Positions 12,733-56,249 of a stretch of 64,000 bases of DNA are shown piece after piece (within the stretch, counting starts at the first letter, position 1; the number at the start of each line of letters is the position of its first letter). The stretch spans positions 2,560,001-2,624,000 of the forward strand of contig CAXXLX010000001.1 of NCBI GenBank assembly GCA_963665235.2. Direction: 5' to 3'. The notes under the pieces are model-generated. The model was not told where the DNA came from. It did no database searches and was given only the letters and a program-made list of their open reading frames with translations. Origin of the DNA: Candidatus Poribacteria bacterium. Lineage in GTDB: Bacteria; Poribacteria; WGA-4E; WGA-3G. The position numbers were made by a program, and so were the translations under genes.

Positions 12733-13535
12733 TCATTTGAAAATGAGGTCAGTAGATCGGAATTTGAGTCGATCTTCTGTTTCAATCTCTGTTATAACTT
12801 TCCGCACATCAGTTTGGGATAAAATTTGCAATTCCCAGAGCAGTCGCAAAATATCAACTAATACCATTTTTATTAATTATTCTATCATTACCGGTTGTTA
12901 GAAATCAAACGGAGAACGGAAGACACGAACTGGAAGTTTATGCTACAATAAAGAGCACAAACTGGAAGTTTATGCTACAATAAAGAGCACAAACTGGAAG
13001 TTTATGCTACAATAAAGAGCACAAACTGGAAGTTTATGCTACAATAAAGAGCACAAACTGGAAGTTTATGCTACAATAAAGAGCACAAACTGGAAGTTTA
13101 TGCTACAATAAAGAGCACAAACTGGAAGTTTATGCTACAATAAAGAGACATTTTCAATTAGAAATGGTATAAGTTGATACAATGAATCCTGTTTGTTTGG
13201 CAATGATGCATTACACGTCTATCGTTGCTTGCAAGAGTCGCTGTGAAACGTTTACAGAGTGCCATAGATTCGCGTTCTCCTGCACCGAGCGTTTGCGGTA
13301 AAGAACTCATAAACTCGTGATCCGCGAGCGTTGTATGATATGTGCGGATCTGTCCTTGCGTTTGCAGCGCGATGATGTTATCAGAAAAGTGGAATCCCTT
13401 TGAGACACCGGTTTTGATTTCATTTTCCACAGCAAATGCGATATTAAGCGTCTCCTGGTCAAAAACAGTGAACAGTAACGTCAAACGTTGAATCTTTGCA
13501 AAAATAGATAGGATGTCGGTATCCACGAAAATCAA
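12733..13535 (-). pseudogene. PIN-domain (VapC-like) toxin interrupted by a MITE
   Basis: MIFVDTDIL, LGAGERES, SNDRR; removing 12861-13169 plus one TA restores ...CINLVDILRLLWELQ...LIFK*. Confidence 0.8.
12861..13169. mobile_element. TA-targeting MITE with 7 tandem 32-bp REP-like units
   Basis: TACCATTT termini, TA duplication at 12859-60 and 13170-71; units AACTGGAAGTTTATGCTACAATAAAGAGCACA at 12928-13151. Confidence 0.85.
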
Positions 13536-23931: not shown

Positions 23932-23947
23932 GTTAGGCAGCATGAAA

Positions 23948-24431
23948 TTGACATACTCTCCCAGCTAAAGCAAGGGAGATTCTTAGAAAGAGTTCCGCTA
24001 CGCGTTAGCTATTGGATTGTGGTTTTCAGACGTGTGAACGTCAACGGGAATGCTTGAGCTGTTCAAGTCTTACTATCCCTAACTCAAAGGACAATGCCCT
24101 GCCCTCGTGCTTTCGCACCTTAAAAGAAGACTTGTGAATCAGTGCTTGGGTATCCAATGCAGCATTACCCGTCTTTTGGATACCGAAAGCATTGCACAAA
24201 ATGTGGATATTGACTGGGTATCGCCAGAACATCAGCACACAACCCTACCACAGGTTGAGGTTCGGAACTTCAACATTGTAAGAAGCGAGTTGAAGGTGGT
24301 AATCCGAACCACTGATGATACTTAATTATACTACAGTTTCGACCAAAAGTCAAGTTAAAATTTTAGCTCATGCGACTTTTCCGCACTACATCCCCCAGCT
24401 AAAGCACGGGGGTTTTGTAGCGGGGGACTTG
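23948..24431 (-). mobile_element. ORF-less IS200/IS605-type element with internal promoter and structured RNA (copy A)
   Basis: Subterminal CCC..CTTTAGC..GGG hairpins at both ends, TTGACT-17-TATAAT (24353-24325), ends ...GAGTATGTCAA; homologue 43628-44101. Confidence 0.75.
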
Positions 24432-24525
24432 ATAAATGGTCGTTCCTTGCTAAAAAAAGTGAATTGTGATAGAGTTAACAGGACAATTGTTCCTAAAAAC
24501 TGGACTAAGAGGGAGGAAACAACTA

Positions 24526-25566
24526 ATGTTAAACTGGGGAGTTATTGGAGCAGGCGGTATTGCCTACGTATTTTGCAACGGGATGCGGTTTACGGATACA
24601 GGACAGATTTTTGCCGTTGCCAGCCGCACTGAATCGAAGGCGGATAGGTTCGCTAACGATTTTGAAGTTCCGCGCAAATACAACCGTTACGAAGACCTAT
24701 TAGCAGATGCGGACGTTGATGCAGTCTATATTGCAACGATTCATCCGTTTCACGCCGAGTGGGCAATAAAGGCTGCCGAAGCAAAGAAGCATATTTTAGT
24801 CGAGAAACCGATAAGTATGAATCATGCGGAAGCCGCGGCAATGGTTGCCGCAGCACGTGAAAACGATGTGTTTCTGATGGAAGCGTTTATGTATCGGTGC
24901 CATCCACAGATACAGCGAATGGTCGAATTAATACAGGCGGGTGAAATAGGTGAGGTTCGCTTCATTCGGGCGACGTTCGGTTTTCAAGCCAATTTCAACC
25001 CAGAAAGTCGGCTTTTCAATCGTGACATGGGGGGTGGTGGCATTCTAGATGTTGGCTGCTATACCGCGTCGATGTCCCGCAAAGTGGCGGGTGCCGCTGC
25101 GAATAAACTGTTTTTGAATCCGATTTCGGTAAAAGCAAACGGAAAAATCGGGCCTACAGGTGTAGACCATATCGCTGCGGCAACGCTCAAATTTGAGAAC
25201 GACATCGTTGCGGAAATAAGCACCGCTGTGGAATGTAATATCGGAAGTGGTGTCACTATCTTCGGGTCTGGCGGGACTATCACGATTCCAGCGCCGTGGG
25301 TGCCATCTTCGCGTTGCAGAGGGGCGCGGACTCCCCTGCCATTAGATACCACTTTTCCATCGAGCCAGATTGTGCTTCACTCCTATCAGCGCGGAGAAGC
25401 CGCCGAGATAACCGTTGAAGTGGACCGTGACCTTTTTACTTACGAAGCCGATATGGTCGCCAATCATATTGCTGACCGGCAAGCCCCGGCTATGTCCTGG
25501 GATGACACGTTGGGGAATATGCAGCTGTTAGACGCTTGGCGTGAAGAGATAGGCGTTGTTTATTGA
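24526..25566 (+). CDS. Gfo/Idh/MocA oxidoreductase
   Basis: WGVIGAGGIA, VEKP, EAFMYRCHP, GGGILDVGCY. Confidence 0.92.
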   Translation: MLNWGVIGAGGIAYVFCNGMRFTDTGQIFAVASRTESKADRFANDFEVPRKYNRYEDLLADADVDAVYIATIHPFHAEWAIKAAEAKKHILVEKPISMNHAEAAAMVAAARENDVFLMEAFMYRCHPQIQRMVELIQAGEIGEVRFIRATFGFQANFNPESRLFNRDMGGGGILDVGCYTASMSRKVAGAAANKLFLNPISVKANGKIGPTGVDHIAAATLKFENDIVAEISTAVECNIGSGVTIFGSGGTITIPAPWVPSSRCRGARTPLPLDTTFPSSQIVLHSYQRGEAAEITVEVDRDLFTYEADMVANHIADRQAPAMSWDDTLGNMQLLDAWREEIGVVY

Positions 25567-29220: not shown

Positions 29221-29229
29221 GTATGGGTG

Positions 29230-30680
29230 TCTTCAGTCCAGTATGGACGCTATATTTATAGAAACCCGCGTGAACACCCTCTTGAACCCCGTAGGGGTGA
29301 TATGTGAACACATCAGTTTGGGCATCACAATATGTCGTTCCTATTTCTTCAGTCCCAGTATTCGGGCAAACGGTTTCCCGCTCCTCAGGGACGCTATGTT
29401 TATAGAAAAGCGTGTGAACATAGTCTTGAATCCCGTAGGGGTGATATGTGAACACATCAGTTTGTGCGTCACAATAGGTCGCTCCTATTTCTTCAGTCCC
29501 AGTATGGACGCTATATTTATAGAAAATCGCGTGAACACCCAGTCTTGAACCCCGTAGGGGTGATATGTGAACACATCAGTTTGGGCGTCACAATATGTCG
29601 TTCCTATTTCTTCAGTCCAGTATGGACGCTATATTTATAGAAAACACCGTGAACACCCTCTTGAACCCCGTAGGGGTGATATGTGAACACATCAGTTTGG
29701 GCATCACAACAGGTCGCTCCTATTTCTTCAGTCCCAGTATTCGGGCAAACGGTTTCCCGCTCCTCAGGGACGCTATATTTATAGAAAACGTGTGAACATA
29801 GTCTTGAACCCCGTAGGGGTGATATGTGAACACATCAGTTTGGGCATCACAACAGGTCGCTCCTATTTCTTCAGTCCAGTATGGACGCATTTATAGAAAA
29901 CATCGTGAACCTCGTCTTGAACCCCGTAGGGGTGATATGTGAACGCATTAGTTTGGGCATCACAATATGTCGTTCCTATTTCTTCAGTATATTTATAGAA
30001 AACATCGTGAACACCGTCTTGAACCCCGTAGGGGTGATATGTCAACGCATTAGTTTGGGCATCACAATATGTCGTTCCTATTTCTTCAGTCCAGTATGGA
30101 CGCTATATTTATAGAAAAGCGCGTGTTTCTTCAGTCCAGTATGGACGCTATATTTATAGAAAATCGTATGAACACCCTCTTGAACCCCGTAGGGGTGATA
30201 TGTCAACGCATTAGTTTGTGCATCACAATATGTCGCTCCTATTTCTTCAGTCCAGTATGGACGCTATATTTATAGAAAATCGCGTGTTTCTTCAGTCCAG
30301 TATGGACGCTATATTTATAGAAAAATCGTATGAACACCGTCTTGAACCCCGTAGGGGTGATATGTCAACGCATTAGTTTGGTTGGGCATCACAATATGTC
30401 GCTCCTCCCGTATGGACGCTATATTTATAGAAAATCGCGTGTTTCTTCAGTCCAGTATGGACGCTATATTTATAGAAAATCGTATGAACACCCTCTTGAA
30501 CCCCGTAGGGGTGATATGTGAACGCATTAGTTTGGGCATCACAATATGTCGCTCCTCCCGTATGGACGCTATATTTATAGAAAAGCGCGTGTTTCTTCAG
30601 TCCAGTATGGACGCTATATTTATAGAAAACATCGTGAACCTCGTCTTGAACCCCGTAGGGGTGATATGTCAACGCATTAG
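29230..30680. repeat. ~1.45-kb tandem array of composite REP-like units (11 x CTTGAAcCCCGTAGGGGTGATATGT plus TTCTTCAGTCCAGTATGGACGCTATATTTATAGAAAA modules)
   Basis: Counted directly; linker segments are homologous to each other rather than unique. Confidence 0.9.
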
Positions 30681-30746
30681 TCTGAAAGTTTATGCTACAC
30701 ATCGGGGTGATAAACCCCACCAACAACTAACGAAGGAGTTTCTTTC

Positions 30747-31559: not shown

Positions 31560-31573
31560 AAGGAGTTATTTTG

Positions 31574-33081
31574 ATGAAAAAACTATTTCAGAAGCAGCTG
31601 CTTTACGCCTGCTTAATAACAGTCCTCTGTTTTGGCATCACGGCACTAAGTTATGGGCAAGCCGTGGTCTCCATAAACCCCGCAGAGGTGGTGTCCCCCG
31701 CCGTGGGACAGCAGATGACGGTTACGATTAAAATAGCCAAAGGCACGCGTGTCGCCGGCTACGACTTAACAATACGGTATGATACAACTGCCCTGCAATA
31801 CGTTGAAATCACGAACAGCACGTATCTTCCGACAGGTGCGTTTGTTGCCCCGGCGGTGGTGTCCAGTGGCCGCATCATATTTGCGGCGACCTCGTTATCG
31901 GGAGCCGTAACTGCCAGTAGTGGCACCTTGGCAACGCTCAAATTCCAAGTGGTTGCGGTGAAAAAATCCACACTCCAACTCACTGATGTTGTCCTCACCG
32001 ACAAGGATGGCAACGCCTTGGCGGTCACGAAACGGAACGCCAACGTTGTTGTGAGACAATTGCTACCGACAGATATCAATAGAGATGGCAGAGTGAACGT
32101 GCAAGACCTCGTCTTAGTTGCGCGCGATCTCGGGAAGACAGGTACTCTCTCGACAGATCTGAACAGTGATAACAGAGTGAACGTGCAGGACCTTGTGTTA
32201 GTCGCACGCGACCTCGGGAAGACAACAAATAGTGGGGGGACCACGCCACCAGATGATGGCGGAACCACCACGCCGCCAGACGACGGCGGAACCACCACGC
32301 CACCGACCACTGACCCGTATGCAGGCATGGCACTAATCCCTGCTGGCGAATTTCGGATGGGAGGCAACGATGCACAGGCCCGGAGCAATGAAAAACCGGT
32401 GCATTCTGTCTATGTAGATGCATTTTACATGGATAAATATGAGGTTACCAATGCCCAATATGCAGCGTTCCTGAATGCGAAAGGCAAACACGCTGAGGGT
32501 GGTATCACCTGGTATCGCATTGGTCAAGATCGTTCTCGTATTGAGCTGGCATCTGGTAAGTATCGTGCGAAAACCGGGTATGAAAATCACCCTGTGACAT
32601 ACGTGAGTTGGTATGGTGCGATGGCTTATGCGGCGTGGAAGGGCAAACGTCTGCCGACAGAAGCGGAGTGGGAAAAAGCTGCACGTGGCGGTTTAGCCGG
32701 TCTAAAATACCCGTGGGGTAACACCATAAATTCCACCAAGGCAAATTACAATAATCATATTAAGGATACCACTGCAGTAGGTAAGTATACTGCAAATGGT
32801 TACGGTTTATTCGATATGGCAGGGAATGTGTGGGAGTGGTGCTTAGACGAGTATAACGGAGGTTTCTATTCGGTTTCGCCAGCTCGGAATCCGTTGTCGG
32901 GTGCAAATAGTGTTGAATGGTTAATAAATAATTATAAAGGTGTTAAAAGTTCCCGCGTTTTGCGTGGTGGCTCCTGGAGCGGTACGGACAGGACGTGCGG
33001 GTCGCCTTTCGCGGCAGCAAGACGCCGCCGTACTCGAACGACTACTTCGGTTTTCGTTGTGCGAGGGCTGTAACCCCTTAA
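31574..33081 (+). CDS. DGR target: signal peptide - cohesin - dockerin - linker - FGE-sulfatase (CLec-fold) domain; 1-nt deletion in VR
   Basis: DINRDGRVNVQDLVLV x2 dockerin, F.MG..., RLPTEAEWEKAARGG, NGYGLFDMAGNVWEW, RVLRGGSW; native GFRCAR end lies in the shifted frame (stop 33081), read ORF stops at 33073. Confidence 0.88.
32947..33069 (+). repeat. DGR variable repeat (VR)
   Basis: Aligns to TR 33530-33653 with 20 substitutions at TR adenines, 1 non-A change, 1 A deletion. Confidence 0.95.
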
Positions 33082-33103
33082 ATCTTTACGTCTTTACCTC
33101 TTA

Positions 33104-33135
33104 CGTCTCCAATCTGCTTTAGCAGATTGGAGACG
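33104..33135. promoter_or_regulatory. Perfect 15-bp inverted repeat after VR (DGR homing hairpin/cruciform)
   Basis: CGTCTCCAATCTGCT-TT-AGCAGATTGGAGACG, ~35 bp after VR. Confidence 0.8.
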
Positions 33136-33191
33136 CGGCTCAAAATTTTAAAAATACTAGTAAATAATTAATTAACATATTGTAATTATTT

Positions 33192-33659
33192 ATGGCAGCA
33201 TCAACAGTTCAAGCGGTTCCAAAACTATACGATGTAATTGTGTGGTTGATGGGGCGCGTTGAAAAATTTCCGCGTTCCCAAAAGTTCACCCTCGGTGACC
33301 GAACTGTCAACCTTGCTCTGGATACACTAGAGTTGCTTATTGAAGCTACCTATACGCGGGACCGCTTGGTTTTGCTACGTAAAGCCAATGTGCAACTGGA
33401 AAAACTGCGTTTTATGATTCGGTTATGCGATTTTTGCGCAAACCATTTTCCGGAAATCATAAAAGATATATTCAAAAAGCGTGTCGCTCTCGATGCCTTT
33501 GCGTCGGGAGTTCACGAGGTTTCAAGCCGAAGTTCCCGCGTTTTGCGTGGTGGCTCCTGGAACAATACAGAACAAAACGTGCGGGTCGCCTTTCGCAACA
33601 ACAATACGCCAACGAACACGAACAACAACAACGGTTTTCGTTGTGCGAAGACACTTTAG
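33192..33659 (+). pseudogene. avd: Avd (accessory variability determinant), C-terminally truncated and read through into TR
   Basis: KFPRSQKFTLGDR...LELLIEATY...ANVQLEKLRFMIRL four-helix-bundle pattern; last helix absent; ORF continues through TR. Confidence 0.85.
33530..33653 (+). ncRNA. DGR template repeat (TR)
   Basis: AAC/AAT-rich copy of VR. Confidence 0.95.
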
Positions 33660-33809
33660 AGGGTCCACCGTGACTACAAGTCACTATAAGGGGTTGCCAG
33701 AGTTGGTATGCCTCCGATGTAGGTGAGTCATATCAAGTGTGCATCAATGAAGAGTCCAAGGTTTGGGACCTGTGTTAGTCTCTTTAGAGATGAGCCGAAG
33801 ATAAAAACT

Positions 33810-33861
33810 GAGGTGTGATGGTAAGTAGGCTTCCTGCCGAATGCTATCACACCTCTTTTTT
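33810..33861 (+). terminator. Intrinsic terminator closing the avd-TR transcript
   Basis: GAGGTGTGAT...ATCACACCTC stem followed by T6. Confidence 0.7.
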
Positions 33862-33969
33862 ATGCTACTATAGGGCGGGGTTTCATGTCTCGCCTTTTCA
33901 TAATTTTTCGTTGTTTTAATTAGAAAAATTCTGTCGCGCGCGTAATAGAACGCGCACGCCCGAGGACTT

Positions 33970-35739
33970 ATGATGAACGCTGTAAAGATTGCCCCTGAGC
34001 TGCTGTTAGCCTTCCAAGACTACGTGGAGACAGCAGGCTACGAGGAGGCAGAATCAACAGATTTACCCTTAGATAATAGAACCTTGAGCCCTCAAGGCAG
34101 TGTGGTCAGGCCGGAAGCACCGCAGGTAAACGTTTTTCTACACTGTGACGAGGCAGCAGCACTTGACCATTTAGAGGAGAAAGGTATTCAAATCAATACC
34201 CGGAAAGGGTGTATCAGAACAGCCCGCTTATCCTTGGAAAATCTGGAACGCCTTTATGAGGAACCCAACCTTATGCATGTTGAGGCATCACACAAGCTGC
34301 ATCCACTGATGGACGTAGCTTTTGCCAGAGTGCAGTTTCCGGAATTTCGGAACAAAACTGATTTGACAGGTAAAGGGGTAATCATTGGTGTTGTTGACAG
34401 CGGCATTGATTCTAACCATCCCGCCTTCCAAGGACGAATTTTGCGGATCTGGGACCAAGAAATTAAACAGAAGTTGACACGTGAAAATTTCTCTCTCTCC
34501 CGGGATACCGATGGGCATGGCACGCATGTCGCCGGCATCGCAGCGGGTAACGATAATCAATACGGTGGGGTTGCTCCCGAAGCGGAATTGGTCATCGTCA
34601 AGAGTACCTTGTGGGATACAGATATCTTAGAAGGTATTCGCTATATCTTTGAATTTGCGGATGAACTCGGCAAACCGGCAGTAGTGAATCTTAGTCTTGG
34701 CGGACACCACGATCCTCACGATGGCAGTGATAGTTTGTCAAGAGAGATTGATAGGTTATCTGGTGAAGGCAAAATTGTTTGTTGTTCGGCTGGCAATGAG
34801 GGAAATTATAATATTCATGCACAAGCGCACCTTGCTCAAAGCGGGGATTCACGCAGCATGCGTTTCTTGGTGCCGGAGACTTCAGGCAGCAACGCTATTC
34901 GGAAGGTTACACTAAATGGGTGGTATTCAGTAAGGGGCCATATTGAGGTAGCTATCCAATCACCGAGTGGAGCTCGGACAGATTATCAAGGTATTCTATC
35001 CGAAAATGCCTTGGTCCCTCACGATTTGCCAGATGCCCGTATCTACACTGTCACGCCTGAAATTGATTCGACAAACCAAGACCGTTCATTCACCATTACA
35101 GTGAACGCTGGCGGCTCTGATGGAGTCGTTACGCCGGGAATATGGAAACTCTGGTTGCATGGTAGAGATGTTAGCAATACTCAAGTGGACGTGTGGGTAT
35201 TAGATGGTAAAAAGCTTCCACAGGTGGTTTTCACCGGGAGAAGTGTTTCTGACTCAATGAAGATTGGATCTCCAGGGGCAGCCCATCGGGCGGTTCCTGT
35301 CGCTTCCTACACAACTAAGGCCGAATGGCAGGATATTGATGGGAGGACATGGACGGTAGGATTGTCTCCAAACGATATTTCTGATTTCAGTAGTGAGGGG
35401 CCTTTACGTAACGGAGTCCAAAAACCGGATGTGACCGCACCGGGGGCGTATATCGCCAGTTGCCTGTCATCTGATGTGGACCAGCCGCCACGCTGGAGGC
35501 AAATAAACTCTCATTATACCATGATGGCGGGCACAAGTATGTCTGCCCCCTTTATCAGCGGTATCATCGCTCTCTTGCTCCAACACGATTCTACATTTTC
35601 ACCCGAACGCATCAAGGCCTTTTTACAAGCGAGCAGTTCCATCCTTGGAAACCGACCTGGCCGTTTCCATCCAAAATGGGGGTATGGACTGATAGATGCC
35701 GATGCACTCGCGGATGCTCTTTTCTCTCTAACTTCGTAA
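33970..35739 (+). CDS. S8 subtilase with N-terminal prodomain and inserted beta domain (Csp-like layout), no obvious signal peptide
   Basis: Catalytic triad motifs GVVDSG, DGHGTHVAG, GTSMSAP. Confidence 0.92.
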   Translation: MMNAVKIAPELLLAFQDYVETAGYEEAESTDLPLDNRTLSPQGSVVRPEAPQVNVFLHCDEAAALDHLEEKGIQINTRKGCIRTARLSLENLERLYEEPNLMHVEASHKLHPLMDVAFARVQFPEFRNKTDLTGKGVIIGVVDSGIDSNHPAFQGRILRIWDQEIKQKLTRENFSLSRDTDGHGTHVAGIAAGNDNQYGGVAPEAELVIVKSTLWDTDILEGIRYIFEFADELGKPAVVNLSLGGHHDPHDGSDSLSREIDRLSGEGKIVCCSAGNEGNYNIHAQAHLAQSGDSRSMRFLVPETSGSNAIRKVTLNGWYSVRGHIEVAIQSPSGARTDYQGILSENALVPHDLPDARIYTVTPEIDSTNQDRSFTITVNAGGSDGVVTPGIWKLWLHGRDVSNTQVDVWVLDGKKLPQVVFTGRSVSDSMKIGSPGAAHRAVPVASYTTKAEWQDIDGRTWTVGLSPNDISDFSSEGPLRNGVQKPDVTAPGAYIASCLSSDVDQPPRWRQINSHYTMMAGTSMSAPFISGIIALLLQHDSTFSPERIKAFLQASSSILGNRPGRFHPKWGYGLIDADALADALFSLTS

Positions 35740-38004: not shown

Positions 38005-38630
38005 TTTTTATCCTGTAAGCCCCATGTCCCCTTGAGAAAAGGGGACATGGGGAAATGCGTAAACTCTAGGTATTATAACATGAGTCGCAAAAATTGTGCA
38101 TAAAAAATTAAGAATAACAGTTCCCCGCTCCTCTAACTGGCGTGAAACCCCGCTCCTTTAGTCCAGTATGGACGATATGTTTATAGAGGCACAAAACCCC
38201 ACGCCTCTTAGTCCCATCGGGACGGTATGTTTATAGGCACCTGGGTTTCTGTCCACCTCAAAAAAACTAAACCTATAATCCCAAAACTTTGATTGTTACG
38301 CATGTTAAACTCCGCGCCCTCTGCGCCCTCTGTGTAATCCGCGATTTGCGGCGTACTCGCCCAGATGCGACGTGCATTCAGACAAAAAAACACAACATCA
38401 CTTAATCACAAAACCTTGAGGCACACACCTCTTAAAATCCGCGTAATCCGATAAATCCGCGATAATCCGCGATTCAGACGAAAACACACGAAATCCATCC
38501 TTCCAATCTTCCATCCTTCCATCTATCCTTTGTACAAAAACTTTACACACCCTTCCGAATATTTGTTGTTGATTTTCTCTGCGAAATTTGCTAAAATAAC
38601 GAAAAAATTCTTTTGAGGGGAGAAATTTAA

Positions 38631-40585: not shown

Positions 40586-42300
40586 CTAATCGTCCCTTTG
40601 CGCCGCGGAGGACGATTGCTCAAGATGGGCTTGATAGAGTCGATTCTTGAAATCCGCATTGATTTCAGATTTTGACAATTTATTGTAAAGTTCCAGCTTG
40701 TTATTGACAAAATCCAATAAAATATCATCAACTACTTGTTCAAACTTATACCGTTTGTTGGTTTCCGCTGAAACGCTGCTTGGAGCTGTTCTGGTTCATT
40801 CACGAAGTCAAGCACTAGCGTATCGGTTTTACCAGTAGCGACACGGTTCAGACGGCTCAAGGTTTGGACACATTGTAACCCATCCAATCGCTTATCAACG
40901 TACATCGTCTGCAGCAGCGGCTCATCGAAACCTGTCTGGAACTTGTTCGCGACAATCAGAATCCGATATTCAGGACTCTTGAAACTGTCCTCGACGGAAG
41001 TGCTCGGCGGCAACAGATTCATCCCGCTTTCCGTGTATTCCTGCCCGTTATCGGTGTCTTGCACTGTGTTGCTGAACGCTACCAAACACCCGTAGGGAAG
41101 TCCCATCTCCTTCATCTGCCGATCAAACTCCTGCTTGTATCTGACGCAGTGCAGTCGGGAGGGTGTAACCAACATCGCTCGTCCCTTCCCTTCAATCGTT
41201 TTTGCCGTGTGTTCGGTGAAGTGTTCAAGGATAATCCGGGTTTTGGTCTCAATACTATGGGGTTGCAGGTCAACGTAATTGGTCAGTGCTCGAAGCGTTC
41301 GCGCCTTCTCGTACTCTCTATCCTCCTGTGCACTTTTAACCAATTGGAAGTATCTCTTAAAGGTGGTATAGTTCTGCAGCACGTCCAGTGTGAAACCTTC
41401 GCTGATACTTTGGCGCATGGAATAGACATGAAACGGGACAAATTTTCCTTCTGCGTCCTTCTGTCCAAAGAGTTCTAAGGTCTTGTTTTTCGGGGTGCCG
41501 CTGAAACCGAAATAGGAGATATGCTCTTGCATTCTGCGTTGTTCCATCTGTTCAAGGATTTTAGCGTCTATATCCGATACTTCATCGGCATCATGTTCCG
41601 TTTCCCCCTCTTCTATCCCCTTTGAGAGTGAAGCCCTGAGATTTCTCTCCGACTCCCCGCTCTGTGAGGAGTGCGCTTCGTCAATAATCACGGCGAAGGT
41701 CTTGCTTTTGAGTTTGCCTATCTCCTCGGCAATCACGCTGAACTTCTGAATCGTTGAGATGATGATGTCTTTGCCGGATTCGAGGAAACCTCTGAGTTGC
41801 GCTGAGGTCTTATCAACGGCATGGACTACCCCCTCGACCTGTGCTACCTGCTTGATTGTGTTCTGCAGCTGCTTGTCAAGGACGCGCCGGTCTGTTACGA
41901 CAATAATGGAGTCAAAGATGCGATTGGTATCGCTCTCCGACCGATACAGATGCGTGAGTAGGTGCGCCAACCACGCGATGGAGTTCGACTTCCCACTCCC
42001 TGTGGTGTGTTGGATGAGATATTTATGTCCAACCCCCTCTTTCTCGATAGCCGCTTGCAATTGACGAATCACATCCAGCTGATGATACCGTGGAAAAATA
42101 AGGACGCGGCGTTTCTCATCTGTCACAATTTTACTTCACGATTCTTTCCATTCAACAAAGGTATTGAAAACCCTCCAAACCCGCATGGGCACAAGACCGC
42201 CTACCTTTGGGAAGACATCCTGCAGCCCGATAATCTGATGACGTTAATCAACAACTTTATCTACGAGCAGGAAACCACAGAAAAGGTTTACAATCTGACA
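40586..42300 (-). pseudogene. hsdR: Type I restriction subunit R, truncated, internally deleted, with an inverted fragment
   Basis: PRYHQL, HTTGSGKS, DEAH, FQTGFD, QTLSRLNR; C-terminus in another frame; upstream PFNKG...YLWEDIL segment on the + strand. Confidence 0.85.
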
Positions 42301-42304
42301 AGTA

Positions 42305-42419
42305 CAGGACTTACGCAGCGCGTTGATAAAGTCCATAGATAATAGGATTTAGAGAGAGATCTAGCGGGCGAGGGGACCTCGCCCCTACGAGGATATCGCC
42401 TAAATTTGCGTAAACCCTG
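42305..42419. mobile_element. CAGGACTTACGCA-type MITE at the hsdR breakpoint
   Basis: TIRs CAGGACTTACGCA / TGCGTAAACCCTG, internal REP-like palindrome. Confidence 0.7.
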
Positions 42420-42650: not shown

Positions 42651-43218
42651 TTATTCACCTCCTTTTACCTCTAAAATACCAAATATCATTAATAGTGCAA
42701 TTGCCAATATCCCTACAATAAATAAAATTATAGAAGTGACAATTAGAAATGTACCTATTTTATTTGCTGTACTCCTCTTAGTGGCTGCTTCCTCTATATT
42801 ATACCATTTCTAATTGAAAATGTCTCTTTCTTGTAGCATAAACTTCCAGTTTGTGCCGTTCTCCGTTTCATTTCTAACAACTGGTAATGGTAGAATAATT
42901 AATAAAAATGGTATTATATAGGTAATATTGTTCGTTAAATTCCCTCTGTTTATGTAAAGCCCTTTGGATAAACAAATAGGAAATTACACCCAGGATAATG
43001 GAAAAAACAAATGGCGCATAACTAATTAGCATGATCCATGTTCTATGATTAATGTCCCAATTGATATACGCAGTCAATAGTATCAATATAACGCCAGAAA
43101 AATATCTCATAGACTTATTGAGTTCCACATCGTTACTCATCAGGCTATCAAATATAGTTTTTTCTTCAGCGAGATATTGTGCGTACCTTTCTTTTTGCAA
43201 TTCTTCTTCATTTGACAT
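42651..43218 (-). pseudogene. Membrane protein interrupted by TA-MITE
   Basis: Removing 42802-42914 plus one TA restores ...QYYLYNIEEAATKRS...GILEVKGGE*. Confidence 0.75.
42802..42914. mobile_element. TA-targeting MITE (single REP unit)
   Basis: Inverted homologue of 12861-13169; TA at 42800-01 and 42915-16. Confidence 0.85.
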
Positions 43219-43627
43219 AATATACACCGATTTCTGTTGATTACATCAACATTAACAGTATAATCAGTATTGGCAAAGTCCTGAAACTACCCCCTTAAAT
43301 CATACTACATTCCAGAAACTTTGTCATAAAATCCACTGAGCCTCCGGCAGTCACAATTTTGCGAATACGGTCGGGTTACCGAAAAACTCGACAGCAAACG
43401 ATCTTAGCGTCCCTAAAACCGATTACTTGCCAAGCAGAAAATTGTCGGCACGCTCACAGGGAGAAATTGTTCAACCCTGCCTCTTTTCTAACCGTAGAGG
43501 CAGGATTGGCAAAGTTTCCAAAGCTACGTCTTAATTATACCACATTCCAGAAACTTTATCAAATTAAAATTAACTGAATATTTGGAAAAGAACTTGACTT
43601 ATCTTGGGTTAAATGTTATAATATTAT

Positions 43628-44101
43628 CAAGTCTTCCGCTACAAAACCCCCGTGCTTTAGCTGGGGGATGTAGTAGCGGCGCATGAGCTAAAATTTTAAT
43701 TTGACTTTTGCATTAAAATGTGGTATAATATATATATCATCAGTGGTTCGGATTACCACCTTCAACGCCACCAATGTTGAAGTTCCGAACCTCAACCTAT
43801 GGTAGGGTTGTGTGCTGATGTTCTGGCGATACCCAGTCAATATCCACATTTTTGTGCAATGCTTTCGGTATCCAAAAGACGGGTCATGCTGCATTGGATA
43901 CCAAAGCACTGATTCACAAGCATAAAGAAGGTGCGAAGCACGAGGGCAGGGCATTGTCCTTTGAGTTAGGGGCAGTAAGACTTGGAACAGCCCAAGCATC
44001 TCCGTTGACGTTCACACGTCTGAAAACCACAATCCAATAGCTAACGCGTAGCGGAACTTTTTAAAAGAATCTCCCTTGCTTTAGCTGGGAGAGTATGTCA
44101 A
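43628..44101 (+). mobile_element. ORF-less IS200/IS605-type element with internal promoter and structured RNA (copy B)
   Basis: Preceded by TTAT; TTGACT-17-TATAAT at 43701-43729; right end GAATCTCCCTTGCTTTAGCTGGGAGAGTATGTCAA. Confidence 0.75.
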
Positions 44102-44153
44102 TGTGCAGGACTGAACCCTCCCTCGGTGGGGGATGTAGGCCCTGCTTTTTTTT
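44102..44153 (+). ncRNA. Candidate small hairpin RNA/terminator convergent on the DUF3800 gene
   Basis: GCAGG...CCTGC stem then T8; orphan promoter at 43594-43622 on the other side of the inserted element. Confidence 0.4.
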
Positions 44154-44167
44154 ATGCTATTTTTTAT

Positions 44168-44815
44168 TCAGGAAGTTGGTCGTATAATTCCTTCAGATAT
44201 TGGTTCTAACAAATTAAATGCCTGGTCGAGACCATACTTCGTTTTAGAAGCGATCGGACGTTCTTGACGAAGCAACGCATAAGCGCAAAAATCAGACAAC
44301 TGAATGAAATATGACTGATCGGATTTCTTAAAAAACGGATCTTCAATAATACGATCAATTGCACCATTTTTTGAAGTTTGCATGCGTCTAACTAATCTTG
44401 TATAGATAGCATCTTTTCCTTCATCACAGATTAAGATCGCATGACTATTCCACCTTTGTAAAGTCCGATTGATATCCTCGAGTAAAGCTGCATAAGCGTG
44501 CTTGCTCGCTTTAGCTGGGAACACGCTGCTAAAAAGTCGTGTTTCTGGCAAGGTTGCCACCATTTGAAGTGTCTGTTTGAAAATTTGGCATCGCCGCCCT
44601 TTGGGAACTACGCCATCAGCAATTCTTCCGCGCCCTGAAACAAATTTCCACGCATGGAATTCAGTGTAAACAGAGATGCTGTCACTCGTCTGTATATCGT
44701 GACGAAAGTCTTTTATTTTCTTAAGACAAGAGTTCCATTTATCATCACGAATCGTTAAGGCTGAAAATATACATAGTTTCTCATCTCCAGAGTCGTCAAT
44801 GTAAATTAGGTGCAT
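44168..44815 (-). CDS. DUF3800 domain protein
   Basis: YIDDSG, EFHA, DEG, IQLSDFCAY (QxxD). Confidence 0.85.
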   Translation of the reverse strand: MHLIYIDDSGDEKLCIFSALTIRDDKWNSCLKKIKDFRHDIQTSDSISVYTEFHAWKFVSGRGRIADGVVPKGRRCQIFKQTLQMVATLPETRLFSSVFPAKASKHAYAALLEDINRTLQRWNSHAILICDEGKDAIYTRLVRRMQTSKNGAIDRIIEDPFFKKSDQSYFIQLSDFCAYALLRQERPIASKTKYGLDQAFNLLEPISEGIIRPTS

Positions 44816-44843: not shown

Positions 44844-45014
44844 ACGCGGGCTTGATAATAAATGTCCGTTTGTGCTAGCCTCTATAAACATATCGTCCTT
44901 GAGGAGCGGGAAACCGTTTGCCCGAATACTGGGACTAAGAGGCGGTGGGGAGACGGCTGCTTCTATAAACATATCGTCCCTACGGGACTAAAGAAACTTT
45001 TTTCAAACTCACGT
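44844..45014. mobile_element. ACGTGAG-type MITE with 6-bp TSD (TATCTA)
   Basis: TATCTA at 44838-43 and 45015-20. Confidence 0.8.
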
Positions 45015-45167: not shown

Positions 45168-46895
45168 TTATAAACCCAACACCTCATTCAGCAAACCTGC
45201 ACTTCTCCGTTCCAATGCCAATATTTCATCGGCAATCTCCTTCAGTGAGCGCAGCGGCGTGTACTGATAGAAATACCGATTGAAGTTAATCTCGTACCCT
45301 ACCTTATCCCTCTTCCTATCTATCCAACTGTCGGGCACATGCGGTTTCACTTCTCGCTGGTAGGAAGCGTCAACATCCTCTGTGATGGGCACCCGTTCAT
45401 AGTCTCGCAGCTTGGTATCCGGTTTCGGATTGCCCTGTTTGTCCGTGACGATATCCCCTGTCTCCGCGTCAATGAGCGGTCTCTCAACCGTTACCTTTGT
45501 ATAACCGAAAAAGTCGTTTGGATAAATTTTTGAGTGTTCGGTCTCCTCAAAGTTGGTGTAGAGTTGTATCAGCTGACGGATATGGTTATCGGAAACGAGA
45601 ACGTTCTTGTCTCCGAGGTTTCTTTTCAGCTCGTCGCGGAAGTCAACGGCGTTGATGAGTTGGACCTTCCCTTGTCGTGCCTCCGATTTTTTGTTCGTTA
45701 GTATCCAGATATAGGTGGCAATATTGGTGTTAAAGAACAGCTTTTCAGGCAGTGCGATAATACACTCCAACCAGTCGTTCTCGATGATCCAACGTCGGAT
45801 TTCACTTTCACCGCTGCCGGCATCCCCTGTAAAGAGCGGTGACCCGTTAAAGACGATTCCAATCCGACTCCCGCGGGCCTCCATTTTGGAGAGCATGTGT
45901 TGCAAGAACAGCAATGCGCCATCGGAGGAGCGAGGCGTGCCTGCTGAGAATCTGCCGGTAGCGGTTTGCGCTTCTGCCTTCACCGCAGGTTCGTCAGATT
46001 TCCAACTGACACCGAAGGGCGGATTCGTAATCATATAATCGAACCGTTCTCCTCGGAATTGGTCCTCGGAGAGACTGGAGCCGTGTCGTATATTGTTGGG
46101 CTCCTCTCCGGTAATGAGCATATCCGACTTACAGATAGCGTAGGTCTGCGCGTTCAGTTCCTGACCCAACAACCGAATGTCAGCATTCGGATTAATCTGC
46201 TCACGGAAGTACTCCTTCCCAACGGTCAACATGCCGCCTGTCCCGCAGCAGGGATCAAAGATACTGCGGACGACCCCTTTTCCGTGCAGGTCTTCGTGAT
46301 GTTCCGCAAATAGCAGTGAGACCAATAATCGCACGACATCCCGCGGCGTGTAGTGTTCTCCGCTGGTCTCGTTGGACATTTCCGAGAATCGGCGGAGCAG
46401 CTCTTCAAAGACCGAGCCCATCGTGTGGTTATCCACCTTATCGGGATGTAAATCGATTTCGGTAAATTTATCGCAAAAGATGAACAGTCGGTTGTTTTTG
46501 TCCAGTCGCTCAATAAACCCATCGAGATTGAAGTTTTCGATGATGTCGCGCACGTCTTGACTGAATCCGCCGATGTAGTTTTCAAAGTTGAGGTGGATAT
46601 TGTTTGCATCTTCTTTCAGTCGGGAGAGGTCGTATTGTGAGATGTTGTAGAAATTAGTTTTTGTCTCTTTTAGAATAATCCGAGGTAGCATTTCTTCGGA
46701 CACTTTATCCTTAAACTCGTTATAGGTATGAATGGCTTTCTCTTTTCGTCCATCCTCGTCTAGGAGACAGTCTAATCGGCGTAACACCAGAAACGGAAGG
46801 GTGATGTCGCCGTATTCGTGTGGTTTGAACAGTCCTCTGAGCACATCATCCGCCACGTTCCAAACCAGATTTGCCAGTTCTTGATAATTTGCCAT
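45168..46895 (-). CDS. hsdM: Type I restriction-modification methyltransferase subunit M
   Basis: GEHYTPRDVV, DPCCGTGGML, NPPF, FNTNIATYIW. Confidence 0.93.
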   Translation of the reverse strand: MANYQELANLVWNVADDVLRGLFKPHEYGDITLPFLVLRRLDCLLDEDGRKEKAIHTYNEFKDKVSEEMLPRIILKETKTNFYNISQYDLSRLKEDANNIHLNFENYIGGFSQDVRDIIENFNLDGFIERLDKNNRLFIFCDKFTEIDLHPDKVDNHTMGSVFEELLRRFSEMSNETSGEHYTPRDVVRLLVSLLFAEHHEDLHGKGVVRSIFDPCCGTGGMLTVGKEYFREQINPNADIRLLGQELNAQTYAICKSDMLITGEEPNNIRHGSSLSEDQFRGERFDYMITNPPFGVSWKSDEPAVKAEAQTATGRFSAGTPRSSDGALLFLQHMLSKMEARGSRIGIVFNGSPLFTGDAGSGESEIRRWIIENDWLECIIALPEKLFFNTNIATYIWILTNKKSEARQGKVQLINAVDFRDELKRNLGDKNVLVSDNHIRQLIQLYTNFEETEHSKIYPNDFFGYTKVTVERPLIDAETGDIVTDKQGNPKPDTKLRDYERVPITEDVDASYQREVKPHVPDSWIDRKRDKVGYEINFNRYFYQYTPLRSLKEIADEILALERRSAGLLNEVLGL

Positions 46896-47533: not shown

Positions 47534-47815
47534 AAAAATATCCAAACGAAATTGACAGCTTTAACGAGTTGTGCTAAATGACTTTTTGTACAACATTATT
47601 TCACACGAACAGAACGTTTTGCCCGTGTTTCTCATTGGTTTGGACAATCTTCAGTCCCGTAGGGACGATATATTTATAGCTAAACGTTCCACCTTTCTCT
47701 TTAGTCCCGTAGGGACGATATGTTTGTCCGACAACATCCAATATCTGTGAGAAAAACAAAAACAATCAGTTAACTGGCACAAGTCGTAGCTTTAACAACA
47801 ATTGAGTACTGTGTT

Positions 47816-53808: not shown

Positions 53809-53910
53809 CAAATACCTCCAGAAAATTGATTCATCGTAAACCAATATATAATGACGCGAGCTAGCGGCAAAATGGTTACATAATTCTGGAAAAAGATGGA
53901 TTTCGAGGTA

Positions 53911-54123
53911 ACGTGAGCTTGATAATAAATATCCGTTTTCTCTAAACCTTTTTCATCGCGAAAAAAGCGGTATAATTGTAGCATAAACTTCCTAGTTTGT
54001 GCTCTAAACCTTTTTCATCGCGAAAAAAGCGGTATAATTGTAGCATAAACTTCCTAGTTTGTGCTGTTTTTTGCTAAAACTACCACAGAACGCTCTAGGT
54101 CAAAACTTTTTTCAAACTCGCGT
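53911..54123. mobile_element. ACGTGAG-type MITE with 6-bp TSD (GAGGTA) and duplicated GTAGCATAAAC REP-like unit
   Basis: GAGGTA at 53905-10 and 54124-29. Confidence 0.8.
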
Positions 54124-54328: not shown

Positions 54329-56223
54329 TTAATTTTTTAATAAGGAGGTGAGGTCCCATAGAAGTATTGTGCCATCTATACTTCCACTTGCGAGCGTTTT
54401 ATGATTTGGGGTTAAGACAATACTAGAAACACCTGCCGTATGTTCAATGAGCTTTCGGAAGAGCGTACCCGAATCCGTATTCCAAAAACGGATTGAATTG
54501 TCATAACCTCCGCTAACTATTGTGTTTCCATCGGGGTAAATATGAGAGCCGTGACTCCGGAAGTGTGTCCAATCAGCGTATTTTTATGTTGACCGGAGGG
54601 AACATTCCATAAACGAATTGTTTTGTCATAGCTCCCACTAGCGAGCGTACTGCCATCCGGATTGAATGCCAGCGTCTCGACACGGTCCGTATGTCCAGTA
54701 AATTTCTGAATTTGTGTTCCTGAAATCCAATTCCATATACGGATAGTATTGTCATCACTTCCACTAGCGAGCGTACTGCCATCCGGACTGAAAGCTATGC
54801 TAAGGACAGCAGCGGTATGCCCTCTAATTTTCCTTTGTTTACCTGTGTTTGTATCCCATAATCGGATAATATTATCACTCCCAGCACTTGCCAGTATACT
54901 GCCATCTGGACTGAACGCAACACTATTAATGCCTCCGCCGATTATACTCTGGAGAGTTTGCTTGTGCGCTCCCGAAACTGAATCCCAAAGATGGATAGTC
55001 GCATCGTATCCCCCACTCGCGAGTATCGCGCCATCCGGACTGAAGGCGAGGGTATTAATTTGAAATCTATGTCCAGTGAGAGTTTGCTTAGGTGCGCTTG
55101 AATCCCAATCCCATAGTCGAATGTCTGATGTATGTGCACTTGCGAGTATGTGTCCATCTGGACTGAAAGCAATCTCCCAAATTGCTGCGTGGGCATATCC
55201 AGTGAATATTTGCTTTTGTTCACCCGAAATCACCTCCCAAATACGGATGGAACCGTCTCCGCTTGCACTTGCTAGTGTTCGCATATCCGGACTGAAGGCA
55301 ACACTTGCTATATATCCCTCGTGTCCTCTGAGAACTTTCTTTGGCCTACCTGTGTTTGCATCCCACAAGCGGATAGTCATGTCCCCACTACCGGTAGCAA
55401 TTAGACTTCCATCCGGACTGAAGGTAACACAGGTAATATATTTGCTATGTCTTTTGAGGAGTCCTCCGAGGATTTTCTTTTGTTTGCCTGTGTTTGTGTC
55501 CCATATACGAGCAGTTTTTTCATCACCGCCACTTACTAGTAAACTGCCATCTGGATTGAACGCAATACTTCTGACACGCTTCTTATGTCCAAGGAGTGTC
55601 AGTTTATGCACGCCAGAAACCCAATCCCATATACGGATAGTATTATCCCTACTTCCACTTGCAAGCAGTGTTCCCTCCGGACTGAAGGTAAGACTTTCGA
55701 TACCTTTTGTATGTCCTTTGAAGGTATTCTTGTGCCGCCCCGTGTTTGCATCCCACAAGTGGATGTTTCTGGCCCTGCCACCCCCTGCAATAGTAGTTCC
55801 ATCCGCGCTAAAGGCGATGCTTGTAATACCACCGAAAACATCCTCAACCAGTTTCCGTTTTTCTTTTCCTGTAGTAGAGTCCCAAAGACGAATAGTGTCG
55901 TCTTCACCCCCACTTGCGATAGTAGTTCCATCCGCGCTAAAGGCAATGCATTCAACAAAGTCTTTATGTCCTGAGAGCAAGGCGATTTCTTTATAGGTTA
56001 TTGCATCATAGAGTCTAATCCCAATAGAGCTTGCCACTGCTAGACGTGTACCATCTGGAGAATAAACGAGATTTCCAGTTATCACCCCTTTACCGAGACG
56101 TTGTGGTTTGGCACCTTTAGGTCCATTCCATTCTGTATAGTCTTGTGCAAAAATATTGAGTGGCAAAAATATTGAAATGAAAAATAATGCCCAGAGAATT
56201 GCGAAAAATTGTGATTTTTTCAT
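54329..56223 (-). CDS. Secreted WD40-repeat protein, frameshifted near the C-terminus
   Basis: Signal peptide, WD40 repeats; final repeats continue in another frame after the G4 run at 54533-54536. Confidence 0.85.
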
Positions 56224-56249
56224 GTTTTTTTCCCACAAGAGAGGAATAT

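What the first reader, a model, noticed from the sequence alone, without database searches (positions are those of the whole stretch)
32947..33653. DGR TR/VR pair with adenine-specific mutagenesis
Seen: VR (32947-33069) at the end of the FGE-domain gene aligns to TR (33530-33653). By hand count there are 20 substitutions at TR adenines (three of them in the last 5 nt, possibly the IMH/IMH* difference), one T>G and one deleted A. A perfect 15-bp hairpin (33104-33135) follows VR and avd sits between VR and TR. Established: this is the signature of DGR mutagenic retrohoming (BPP-1 paradigm), and FGE-subtype CLec folds are known DGR targets.
Basis: partly seen in the sequence, partly recalled or inferred. 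Interest (0 to 1): 0.8.

Follow-up and report, generated by a model that had tools for sequence, protein, structure and literature searches.

The report
DGR repeat pair missing its enzyme
The adenine-only mismatch pattern of a diversity-generating retroelement is really there, but a 1.1-kb deletion has removed its reverse transcriptase and the variable repeat carries a frameshift, so it is most likely a recently disabled copy of a known kind of element.

Summary
VR 32947-33069 aligns to TR 33530-33653 with 20 substitutions and one 1-nt deletion at 38 TR adenines, against 1 change at 86 other bases (Fisher p=1.8e-12).

The host is a Candidatus Poribacteria chromosome (names). In 8 of its 14 related loci the cassette reads target(VR) - avd (115 aa) - RT (~352 aa) - TR - structured RNA. 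That is the published avd-RT-TR architecture B2.

The window carries a 1,132-bp deletion relative to L003. It joins avd codon 79 to the last 11 codons of the RT at a TGC microhomology (33426-33428). No RT is found anywhere in the 64 kb.

The deleted adenine shifts the frame of the target gene inside VR. All five closest homologues end in frame instead.

TR, the IMH-like 3' end, the hairpin after VR and the ~170-nt RNA with its terminator are intact. Only one non-adenine mismatch exists, so inactivation looks recent. Activity in trans from an RT elsewhere in the genome could not be tested.

Inactivated and degenerate DGR loci are already described. Verdict: an ordinary, decayed member of a known kind.

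The parts
31571..33073 (+). Target gene (500 aa from TTG; 499 aa from the ATG one codon later). It has an N-terminal hydrophobic leader that looks like a signal peptide (read by eye; no predictor run), then cohesin, dockerin and an FGE-sulfatase/C-type-lectin domain. VR sits at its 3' end, and the frame is shifted from about codon 472.
   Evidence: Pfam gives FGE-sulfatase 8.8e-62 (residues 251-487, profile 3-240 of 255), Cohesin 8.1e-13 and Dockerin_1 2.4e-06. The five closest homologues (83-90% identical) align over only 94-95% of the query and all end with ...VRVA.R...GFRCARAVSP, which this ORF lacks.
32947..33069 (+). Variable repeat (VR). The mutagenised core is 32947-33064. 33065-33069 starts the VR-specific (IMH-like) 3' flank.
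32985..32986 (+). Site of the 1-nt deletion in VR relative to TR (a TR adenine at 33569-33572), which causes a -1 frameshift. The shifted ORF stops at 33071-33073. The frame that encodes the conserved C-terminus stops at 33079-33081.
   Evidence: Three-frame translation. VR is 1 nt shorter than all 8 TRs compared: its own and 7 from relatives.
33104..33135 (+). Perfect inverted repeat (15+15 nt around TT) 34 nt after the end of VR. It is the candidate target-site hairpin/cruciform, the terminator of the target gene, or both.
   Evidence: By my reading, a hairpin at the same relative position but with a different stem sequence follows 11 of 15 VRs examined in the window and relatives.
33192..33428 (+). 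5' fragment of avd (codons 1-79 of 115).
   Evidence: Pfam bAvd 37.8 bits, under the cut-off of 40, covering profile 6-74 of 107. NCBIfam Avd NF033474 63.9 bits, under the cut-off of 80, covering profile 4-74 of 104; the intact L003 Avd scores 114.8 over 4-104. The alignment with 115-aa Poribacteria Avd proteins diverges after ...IRLC.
33426..33428 (+). Deletion junction. The TGC is shared by the avd side and the RT side, and 1,132 bp are missing relative to L003 (10238-11369).
   Evidence: Anchored comparisons with L003 and L005. blastn: window 31625-33431 matches L003 8457-10240, and window 33426-33860 matches L003 11367-11780.
33427..33462 (+). Remnant of the reverse transcriptase gene: the last 11 codons plus the stop, in a different frame from the avd fragment.
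   Evidence: tblastn of L003 RT residues 342-352 (8 of 11 identical; E=1.5 on its own), supported by the nucleotide match (E=1e-104).
33192..33659 (+). Chimeric ORF (155 aa): avd codons 1-79, then the out-of-frame RT end and spacer, then TR read as protein. It is a by-product of the deletion and not a gene product with a known role.
   Evidence: The same fused ORF (99% identical) exists on another public contig (P0121).
33530..33653 (+). Template repeat (TR). It is adenine-rich (38 of 124) with AAC/AAT codons. The TR-specific (IMH*-like) 3' end starts at 33649.
   Evidence: At the VR-variable adenine positions the window TR still carries A, as the TRs of the 6 intact relatives aligned mostly do, whereas the TR of RT-less L002 has lost several.
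33691..33861 (+). Conserved structured RNA element downstream of TR. Helices lie at 33695-33743, 33752-33764 and 33771-33797. A terminal hairpin at 33810-33855 is followed by TTTTTT at 33856-33861, which looks like an intrinsic terminator.
   Evidence: Found by local alignment in 10 of 14 Poribacteria loci. Consensus fold of 11 sequences: 47 pairs, 8 with compensatory changes. 97.7% of cells are paired against 36-47% when partners are slid, and 0-4 of 500 shuffles reach the observed values. The window RNA alone has z=-3.6. No Rfam family matches.

Best explanation
This is a chromosomal Poribacteria DGR cassette of the avd-RT-TR type that has lost its engine. In the intact form, seen in relatives, one transcript carries avd, the RT, TR and a structured 3' RNA. 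The RT with Avd copies TR into cDNA, misreading adenines. The cDNA then replaces VR at the 3' end of a probably secreted or surface cohesin-dockerin-lectin protein, guided by the shared 3' end of the repeats and a hairpin just downstream. In this window a 1,132-bp deletion between two TGC triplets removed the last third of avd and all but 11 codons of the RT. The VR still bears the imprint of the last retrohoming events: 17 adenine substitutions in the core, plus one single-base deletion at an adenine beside an AAC, which is where RT slippage is thought to occur. That deletion frameshifts the last 28 codons of the lectin domain, and with no RT in cis it has not been overwritten. Shown here: the mismatch pattern, the deletion and its breakpoints, the absence of an RT in 64 kb, the frameshift, and the intact TR, RNA and hairpin. 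Inferred: that the frameshift was made by the RT, that inactivation is recent, and that the cassette is not diversifying now.
For: Adenine bias: 21 of 38 A against 1 of 86 non-A, p=1.8e-12. Architecture: 8 of 14 Poribacteria loci have avd (115 aa) directly followed by an RT of ~352 aa and then TR. The RTs carry RVT_1 (1e-24 and 5.8e-26), and the L003 RT matches PDB chain 8ub7_A 'Reverse transcriptase' at 1.3e-63. Deletion: the avd match ends at 33428 and the RT-end/TR match starts at 33426, and only RT residues 342-352 remain. No RT in the window: no RVT_1 in 42 of the 51 ORFs of 150 aa or more. The 9 not scanned were ORFs lying inside or overlapping scanned ORFs, mostly on the opposite strand. 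tblastn with two RTs found nothing below E=0.2. A profile of 16 RTs run over all 1,527 six-frame pieces of 25 aa or more gave a best E of 0.69. The deletion is not a one-off assembly error: P0121, 99% identical over all 155 aa, comes from a different contig. Frameshift. Recency: there is one non-adenine mismatch, within the 0-3 seen for the VRs nearest the TR in intact relatives, whereas the RT-less L002 has 15 non-A against 12 A mismatches. The local TR is the best template for this VR (1 non-A mismatch against 4 or more for seven foreign TRs). A 115-aa Avd 98% identical over the shared part exists (P0123). RT loss is recurrent: 6 of 14 related loci lack an intact RT through different deletions, and P0122 has yet another breakpoint. 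Literature: architecture B2 avd-RT-TR; over half of candidate DGRs discarded as inactivated; 11 of 372 DGRs with frameshifting TR/VR indels, and indels mostly next to AAC (PMC5758913, passages read).
Against: A nearly pure adenine pattern, an undamaged TR and an undamaged 3' RNA are also what a cassette still serviced in trans would show. The other ~4.3 Mb of this chromosome could not be searched, so an intact sister DGR cannot be excluded. The single-base deletion in VR could be a consensus error at a population-variable site, because no reads were available. The RT homologue search listed no cluster representative from a contig of this contig's length. That is uninformative, since only representatives are shown.
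Confidence: 0.65

Rival explanations
1. Satellite cassette, still active in trans. The deletion left the avd promoter side, TR, the structured 3' RNA and the terminator as one short transcription unit. An intact DGR of the same family elsewhere on the chromosome supplies RT and Avd, which copy this TR and keep rewriting this VR.
For: There is only 1 non-adenine mismatch. The TR adenines, the 3' RNA, the IMH-like end and the hairpin are all intact. Poribacteria genomes can hold two or more cassettes of this family: L009 and L010 come from one MAG, and L003 and L006 from another. The VR of RT-less L006 fits the TR of L003 from the same MAG with 19 A against 5 non-A mismatches. Degenerate loci possibly diversified in trans are described for Thiohalocapsa PB-PSB1 (PMC10907252, passages read). 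avd, TR and brt work from a plasmid in trans in BPP-1, as cited in PMC5758913.
Against: The frameshifted VR allele stands in the consensus, which frequent rewriting plus selection should remove. No RT was found within 30 kb on either side. For three relatives listed as chromosome 1 assemblies of 5.7-6.7 Mb (L007, L008, L014), the Avd-based scan returned only a single locus each, and that locus is RT-less. This suggests such loci can exist without a master, but the scan finds close relatives only. RT-less L002 has clearly decayed.
Confidence: 0.2
2. The element is intact in most cells. The deletion, the 1-nt gap, or both are assembly or consensus artefacts, or a structural variant picked by the assembler at a hypervariable, repeat-containing locus.
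For: VR regions are heterogeneous in populations. Structural variants with and without an intact RT at the same DGR locus were seen with long reads in Thiohalocapsa (PMC10907252). A near-identical intact Avd (P0123) and an RT (P0257) both come from contigs listed as 12,000 nt long.
Against: The same fused ORF occurs on a second, independent contig (P0121). The junction is a clean microhomology-flanked deletion. The missing base is not in a homopolymer.
Confidence: 0.1
3. This is not a DGR at all. It is an ordinary diverged duplication of the 3' end of the FGE-domain gene.
For: None beyond the fact that the two copies are repeats.
Against: Ordinary divergence would not put 21 of 22 differences on one base of one copy (p=1.8e-12). 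The copy sits behind an avd fragment and an RT remnant, and it is orthologous to the TR of intact DGRs.
Confidence: 0.01

Closest known systems
Bordetella phage BPP-1 DGR (mtd-avd-TR-brt), the paradigm
   Same: A TR/VR pair with adenine-specific differences. VR lies at the 3' end of a C-type-lectin-fold gene. An Avd accessory gene is present. The repeats share a 3' end followed by TR- and VR-specific bases. An inverted repeat follows VR. The RT of the intact relatives matches PDB 8ub7_A 'Reverse transcriptase' (328 aa) at 1.3e-63. I recall that entry as the BPP-1 enzyme, but the tool does not say so.
   Different: The gene order in the intact relatives is avd-RT-TR, not avd-TR-RT. The element is chromosomal with no phage genes nearby. 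The hairpin is 14-15 bp with loop TT/TTTA and lies 34 nt from VR. BPP-1-like elements have 7-10 bp stems, a GRNA loop and a distance of 4-34 bp (PMC3240598). Here the RT is deleted and avd is truncated.
Architecture B2 (avd-RT-TR) of Wu et al. 2018 (PMC5758913)
   Same: The intact Poribacteria relatives have exactly this core order, with the target gene upstream. The window is a deletion derivative of it.
   Different: Wu et al. compiled only putatively functional DGRs and discarded truncated ones, and this cassette would have been discarded. I read passages of the paper but not its supplementary tables, so I do not know whether any Poribacteria entry is listed there.
'Degenerate' DGR loci of Thiohalocapsa PB-PSB1 (Dore et al. 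2024, PMC10907252)
   Same: These are loci of a DGR family in which the RT, the TR or the accessory gene is missing or pseudogenised, sitting beside complete loci. Activity in trans or intact structural variants were proposed as explanations.
   Different: The phylum and the target type differ: here a cohesin-dockerin-FGE protein, there putative antigen sensors. Here TR is retained locally and is the best template for the local VR. No population data are available here.
Treponema denticola TvpA and other FGE-subtype C-type-lectin DGR targets
   Same: The FGE-sulfatase-like fold carries VR at the C-terminus. The window domain matches TvpA (PDB 2y3c_A) at 2e-08 and formylglycine-generating enzymes at up to 2.9e-37.
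   Different: This target has N-terminal cohesin and dockerin modules, and its VR is frameshifted.

Membership tests
Diversity-generating retroelement (complete, autonomous cassette) | TR/VR pair whose differences fall almost only on TR adenines | tested here: met
   21 of 38 A against 1 of 86 non-A, p=1.8e-12
Diversity-generating retroelement (complete, autonomous cassette) | A DGR-type reverse transcriptase gene in the cassette | tested here: not met
   Only the last 11 codons remain at 33427-33462. There is no RVT_1 in the 42 ORFs scanned. An RT profile over all six frames gave a best E of 0.69.
Diversity-generating retroelement (complete, autonomous cassette) | Accessory gene avd, full length | tested here: not met
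   79 of 115 codons remain. NCBIfam NF033474 scores 63.9 against a cut-off of 80, and Pfam bAvd scores 37.8 against a cut-off of 40.
Diversity-generating retroelement (complete, autonomous cassette) | VR at the 3' end of an open target gene with a C-type-lectin/FGE fold | tested here: inconclusive
   The fold and the position are met (FGE-sulfatase 8.8e-62). The reading frame is broken inside VR, so the conserved C-terminus is not encoded.
Diversity-generating retroelement (complete, autonomous cassette) | Shared 3' end of the repeats followed by fixed VR-specific versus TR-specific bases (IMH / IMH*) | tested here: met
   17 identical nt (33048-33064 and 33632-33648) are followed by GGGCT in VR against AGACA in TR. 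The same A/G differences separate the window VR from all 8 aligned TRs and recur in the relatives' VR 3' ends. Their function was not tested.
Diversity-generating retroelement (complete, autonomous cassette) | GC-rich hairpin/cruciform shortly downstream of VR with a 4-nt GRNA loop (Guo et al. 2011) | tested here: inconclusive
   The stem is present, and a hairpin is conserved in position with varying sequence in 11 of 15 VR flanks. The loops are not GRNA, and the stem here is longer (14-15 bp).
Diversity-generating retroelement (complete, autonomous cassette) | Ongoing diversification of VR in the population | not testable with these tools
   No reads are available.
Architecture B2 avd-RT-TR (Wu et al. 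2018) | Core gene order avd, RT, TR on one strand | tested here: met
   Met for the intact orthologous loci L001, L003, L004, L005, L009, L011 and L012. The window keeps the order avd fragment, RT remnant, TR.
FGE-sulfatase / C-type-lectin-like domain (PF03781) | Profile match above the curated cut-off | tested here: met
   209.5 bits against a cut-off of 23.3, but covering only profile positions 3-240 of 255 because of the frameshift.

The most novel reading that the evidence does not exclude
The deletion did not kill the cassette but turned it into a non-autonomous satellite. A short avd'-TR-3'RNA transcript would still be made and copied by the RT-Avd of an intact sister DGR elsewhere on the chromosome. 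Poribacteria would then run master/satellite DGR networks that vary a family of cohesin-dockerin lectin proteins, which are probably secreted or surface-exposed. The conserved ~170-nt RNA after TR would be the handle the RT recognises.
Probability: 0.2. Interest if true: 0.5.

Novelty: new member of a known kind. Interest (0 to 1): 0.3.

Why it matters
This is a clean, mapped example of why a TR/VR adenine signature alone does not show a working DGR. The signature outlives the enzyme.

It also documents a DGR family that is widespread in Candidatus Poribacteria, with Avd proteins 78-93% identical across 14 genomic loci. The family targets cohesin-dockerin-lectin proteins and repeatedly loses its RT through internal deletions (6 of 14 loci).

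It points to a conserved structured RNA downstream of TR. That RNA could be the counterpart, in avd-RT-TR elements, of the spacer RNA needed for priming in BPP-1. The BPP-1 spacer is recalled from memory and was not read here.

My two searches for Poribacteria or sponge symbionts together with DGRs returned only papers whose listings showed no focus on this family. I did not open them.

Tried and rejected
- **Cluster members:** The question stayed open.
- **Sister RT on the same contig:** I searched homologues of the L001 RT for a representative listed on a contig of 4,364,704 nt. None of the 120 listed fits. This is uninformative, because only cluster representatives are shown.
- **The window's own genome:** it is not among the genome contigs representatives; the best Avd match is 93%. 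The rest of the chromosome therefore could not be read.
- **RNA families:** Rfam found nothing at gathering threshold on the whole window. At E up to 1 on 32900-33950 there was only a chance miRNA match on the hairpin. No tRNA was found.
- **Promoter and terminator scan of 32800-34100:** nothing useful on the + strand. The terminator at 33810-33861 has too large a loop for that scan.
- **Solved structures for Avd:** searching with the L003 Avd gave only a weak match (E=0.16), so I make no claim about which helix is lost.
- **Frameshift within avd:** I considered that avd might simply continue in another frame. Neither of the other two frames of 33429-33530 resembles the Avd C-terminus.
- **FGE-like Pfam match on the chimeric ORF:** the match on residues 88-153 is just TR read as protein.
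Full report
**1. The observation**

The sequence at 32700-33900 and a formal local alignment confirm that VR 32947-33069 and TR 33530-33653 are copies of each other.
- 20 substitutions at TR adenines: 13 A>G, 6 A>T and 1 A>C;
- one T>G (TR 33605);
- one base missing from VR.

In one search I placed the gap one base off. The parsimonious placements, as, all put the missing base at a TR adenine (33569, or 33571/33572). TR has 38 A among 124 nt, so 21 of 38 adenines are changed against 1 of 86 other bases (Fisher p=1.8e-12). 32 of the 38 adenines lie in codon positions 1-2, mostly in AAC/AAT codons. Only this one VR and this one TR exist in the window. The hairpin at 33104-33135 is as described.

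**2.

Pfam finds the target gene 31571-33073 as cohesin + dockerin + FGE-sulfatase. The ORF between VR and TR (33192-33659, 155 aa) matches Avd only over profile positions 6-74 of 107, below the cut-off, and then matches FGE-sulfatase, which is simply TR read as protein. The next gene, 33970-35739, is an S8 peptidase and not an RT.

Three checks found no RT in the window:
- None of the 42 ORFs scanned, out of the 51 ORFs of 150 aa or more, has RVT_1. The 9 left out were ORFs lying inside or overlapping scanned ORFs, mostly on the opposite strand.
- tblastn with two RTs of relatives found nothing below E=0.2.
- A profile built from 16 related RTs, run with filters off over all 1,527 six-frame pieces of 25 aa or more, gave a best E of 0.69.

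**3. Relatives show the intact form**

Homologues of the target and of Avd that carry names are called Candidatus Poribacteria. The window's own target protein is listed on a contig of 4,364,704 nt. A scan of genome contigs with the 80-residue Avd fragment returned 27 loci, 14 of them Poribacteria. The window's own genome is not among them.

In L003 and L005 the order is:
- two cohesin-domain genes;
- the cohesin-dockerin-FGE target with VR;
- avd (115 aa);
- an ORF of 353 or 361 aa with RVT_1 (1e-24, 5.8e-26);
- TR.

tblastn finds full-length avd plus RT in 8 of the 14 loci: L001, L003, L004, L005, L009, L010, L011 and L012. This is architecture B2 (avd-RT-TR) of Wu et al. 2018 (PMC5758913, passages read). 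The L003 RT matches PDB 8ub7_A 'Reverse transcriptase' at 1.3e-63. The window's FGE domain matches formylglycine-generating enzymes and the DGR target TvpA (2y3c).

In the intact loci, the TR and the VR upstream of avd differ at 14-25 adenines and 0-3 other bases.

**4. The deletion**

blastn shows window 31625-33431 colinear with L003 8457-10240, and window 33426-33860 colinear with L003 11367-11780. Anchored comparison puts the junction at the TGC of 33426-33428. That triplet is present on both sides in L003, and 1,132 bp are missing. What remains of the RT is its last 11 codons plus the stop (33427-33462), in another frame than avd.

Protein alignment shows the window's Avd is identical or near-identical to 115-aa Poribacteria Avds up to ...IRLC and unrelated afterwards. 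NCBIfam scores it 63.9 against a cut-off of 80, where the intact L003 Avd scores 114.8.

P0121, from a different contig, is 99% identical over all 155 residues, including the junction. The deletion is therefore real and shared.

**5. The frameshift**

The target ORF reads ...SSRVLRGGSW in frame. After the missing base it runs out of frame to a stop at 33071-33073. The frame that encodes ...VRVAFR...GFRCARAVTP stops at 33079-33081. The five closest homologues (83-90% identical) all end ...GFRCARAVSP and align over only 94-95% of the query. VR is one base shorter than its own TR and than all seven foreign TRs compared, so the change is in VR.

Wu et al. report TR/VR length differences in 25 of 372 DGRs. 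Of these, 11 cause frameshifts, and indels lie mostly next to AAC, which they attribute to RT slippage. The position here...ACAGAAC..., fits that, but a consensus error cannot be excluded without reads.

**6. What is still intact**

- **TR.** At the VR-variable adenine positions the window TR still carries A, as the TRs of the 6 intact relatives aligned mostly do. The T at 33605 is shared by 7 of the 8 aligned TRs and is therefore probably ancestral. The T>G is then a change in VR.
- **The 3' boundary.** The A/G differences at 33649 and 33651 separate the window VR from all 8 aligned TRs and recur in the relatives' VR 3' ends. They mark the IMH/IMH*-like boundary.
- **The hairpin.** By my reading, a hairpin follows VR at the same relative position, with different stem sequences, in 11 of 15 VR flanks. 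Guo et al. 2011 describe 7-10 bp stems, GRNA loops and distances of 4-34 bp (PMC3240598, passages read). Here the stem is 14-15 bp, the loop is not GRNA and the distance is 34 nt.
- **The RNA downstream of TR.** A ~170-nt element (33691-33861) is conserved in 10 of 14 Poribacteria loci. I aligned 11 copies: the window plus 10 from relatives, leaving out the truncated copy of L005. The alignment folds into four main stem-loops (six helices), the last one a terminator-like hairpin. It has 47 pairs, 8 of them with compensatory changes. 97.7% of cells are paired against 36-47% for slid partners, and 0-4 of 500 shuffles reach the observed measures. The structure was derived from the same alignment, which favours it. 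No Rfam family matches.

**7. Relic or satellite?**

RT loss is recurrent. L002 keeps RT residues 281-352 only, L007 keeps 1-51 only, and L006, L008, L013 and L014 keep none, each with different avd end points. P0122 has yet another breakpoint. RT-less L002 has decayed: it shows 15 non-adenine against 12 adenine mismatches, and its TR has itself lost adenines.

The window, with one non-adenine mismatch, looks like an intact locus in this respect, and its own TR is the best template for its VR. So either the deletion is recent or an RT acts in trans. Doré et al. 2024 describe exactly such 'degenerate' loci next to complete ones. They consider trans activity, and also intact structural variants within the population (PMC10907252, passages read).

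I favour a recent relic (0.65). The frameshifted allele stands uncorrected. RT-less loci can also apparently exist without a master: for three relatives listed as chromosome 1 assemblies of 5.7-6.7 Mb (L007, L008, L014), the scan returned only a single RT-less locus each. I give trans activity 0.2 and an assembly or variant artefact 0.1. The rest of the genome, the reads and the metagenome collections could not be examined.

**8. Novelty**

The following are all in print:
- DGRs;
- FGE-type targets;
- the avd-RT-TR order;
- frameshifting indels;
- inactivated or degenerate loci.

The new elements are modest: this particular Poribacteria family with cohesin-dockerin targets, its repeated RT deletions, and the conserved RNA after TR. 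My two searches for Poribacteria or sponge symbionts together with DGRs returned only papers whose listings showed no focus on this family, and I did not open them. The supplementary tables of the large surveys were not consulted and may list such loci.

Noticed in passing
window 29228-30690: A 1.5-kb array of about 11-12 degenerate tandem units (periods 102-150 nt, 89-97% matches) lies between the two cohesin-domain genes upstream of the target. In L003 the two orthologous genes lie about 200 nt apart. Partial copies of the unit lie at 4969-5390, 38156-38236, 44881-44993 and 47646-47738. There are no matches in the 27 related loci.
   Followed up: partly
window 23947-24435 and 43624-44102: A ~490-bp inverted repeat (90% identical overall, segments at 95-99%) brackets a 19-kb segment that contains the whole DGR locus. 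Each arm lies just upstream of an outward-facing gene (24466-25566 +, 44168-44815 -). It could mark an invertible or mobile segment, or it could be a duplicated intergenic element.
   Followed up: no
window 12892-13179; also 42799-42916 and 53975-54073: There are eight to nine head-to-tail copies of a 32-nt unit (99% identical, no spacers, so not a CRISPR array). Inverted partial copies lie at two other places in the window.
   Followed up: no
L010 11473-11620 compared with L009 11473-11600: Two cassettes from one MAG are 97% identical over target-avd-RT. In L010 the 5' half of 'TR' equals the L009 TR, while the 3' half is adenine-mutagenised and continues into VR-type flank and target-gene sequence. 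L010 also lacks the downstream RNA. This looks like a TR x VR recombinant.
   Followed up: partly
L002 10658-10775: In this RT-less cassette the TR itself has lost several adenines that all other TRs keep (for example ...GTTCAACTCCCTC... where the others have GAACAACAACAAC). It looks as if the TR had been overwritten by a mutagenised copy or by VR.
   Followed up: no
L001 3571-3740 and L013 6495-6664: Solo copies of the TR-downstream RNA element occur without an adjacent TR. L001 has a second copy 1.8 kb after the first. In L013 the element directly abuts avd codon 63.
   Followed up: no
window 40732-42126 (-), 45168-46895 (-): A type I restriction-modification remnant. An HsdM-like methylase (575 aa) sits near an HsdR-like ORF of only 464 aa, which is bordered by dispersed repeats (42304-42419).
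   Followed up: no
window 51073-53844 (-) and 54517-56238 (-): Two very large WD40-repeat proteins (923 and 573 aa) account for most of the repeat families in the window. There is also a 718-aa TPR protein at 9829-11985.
   Followed up: no
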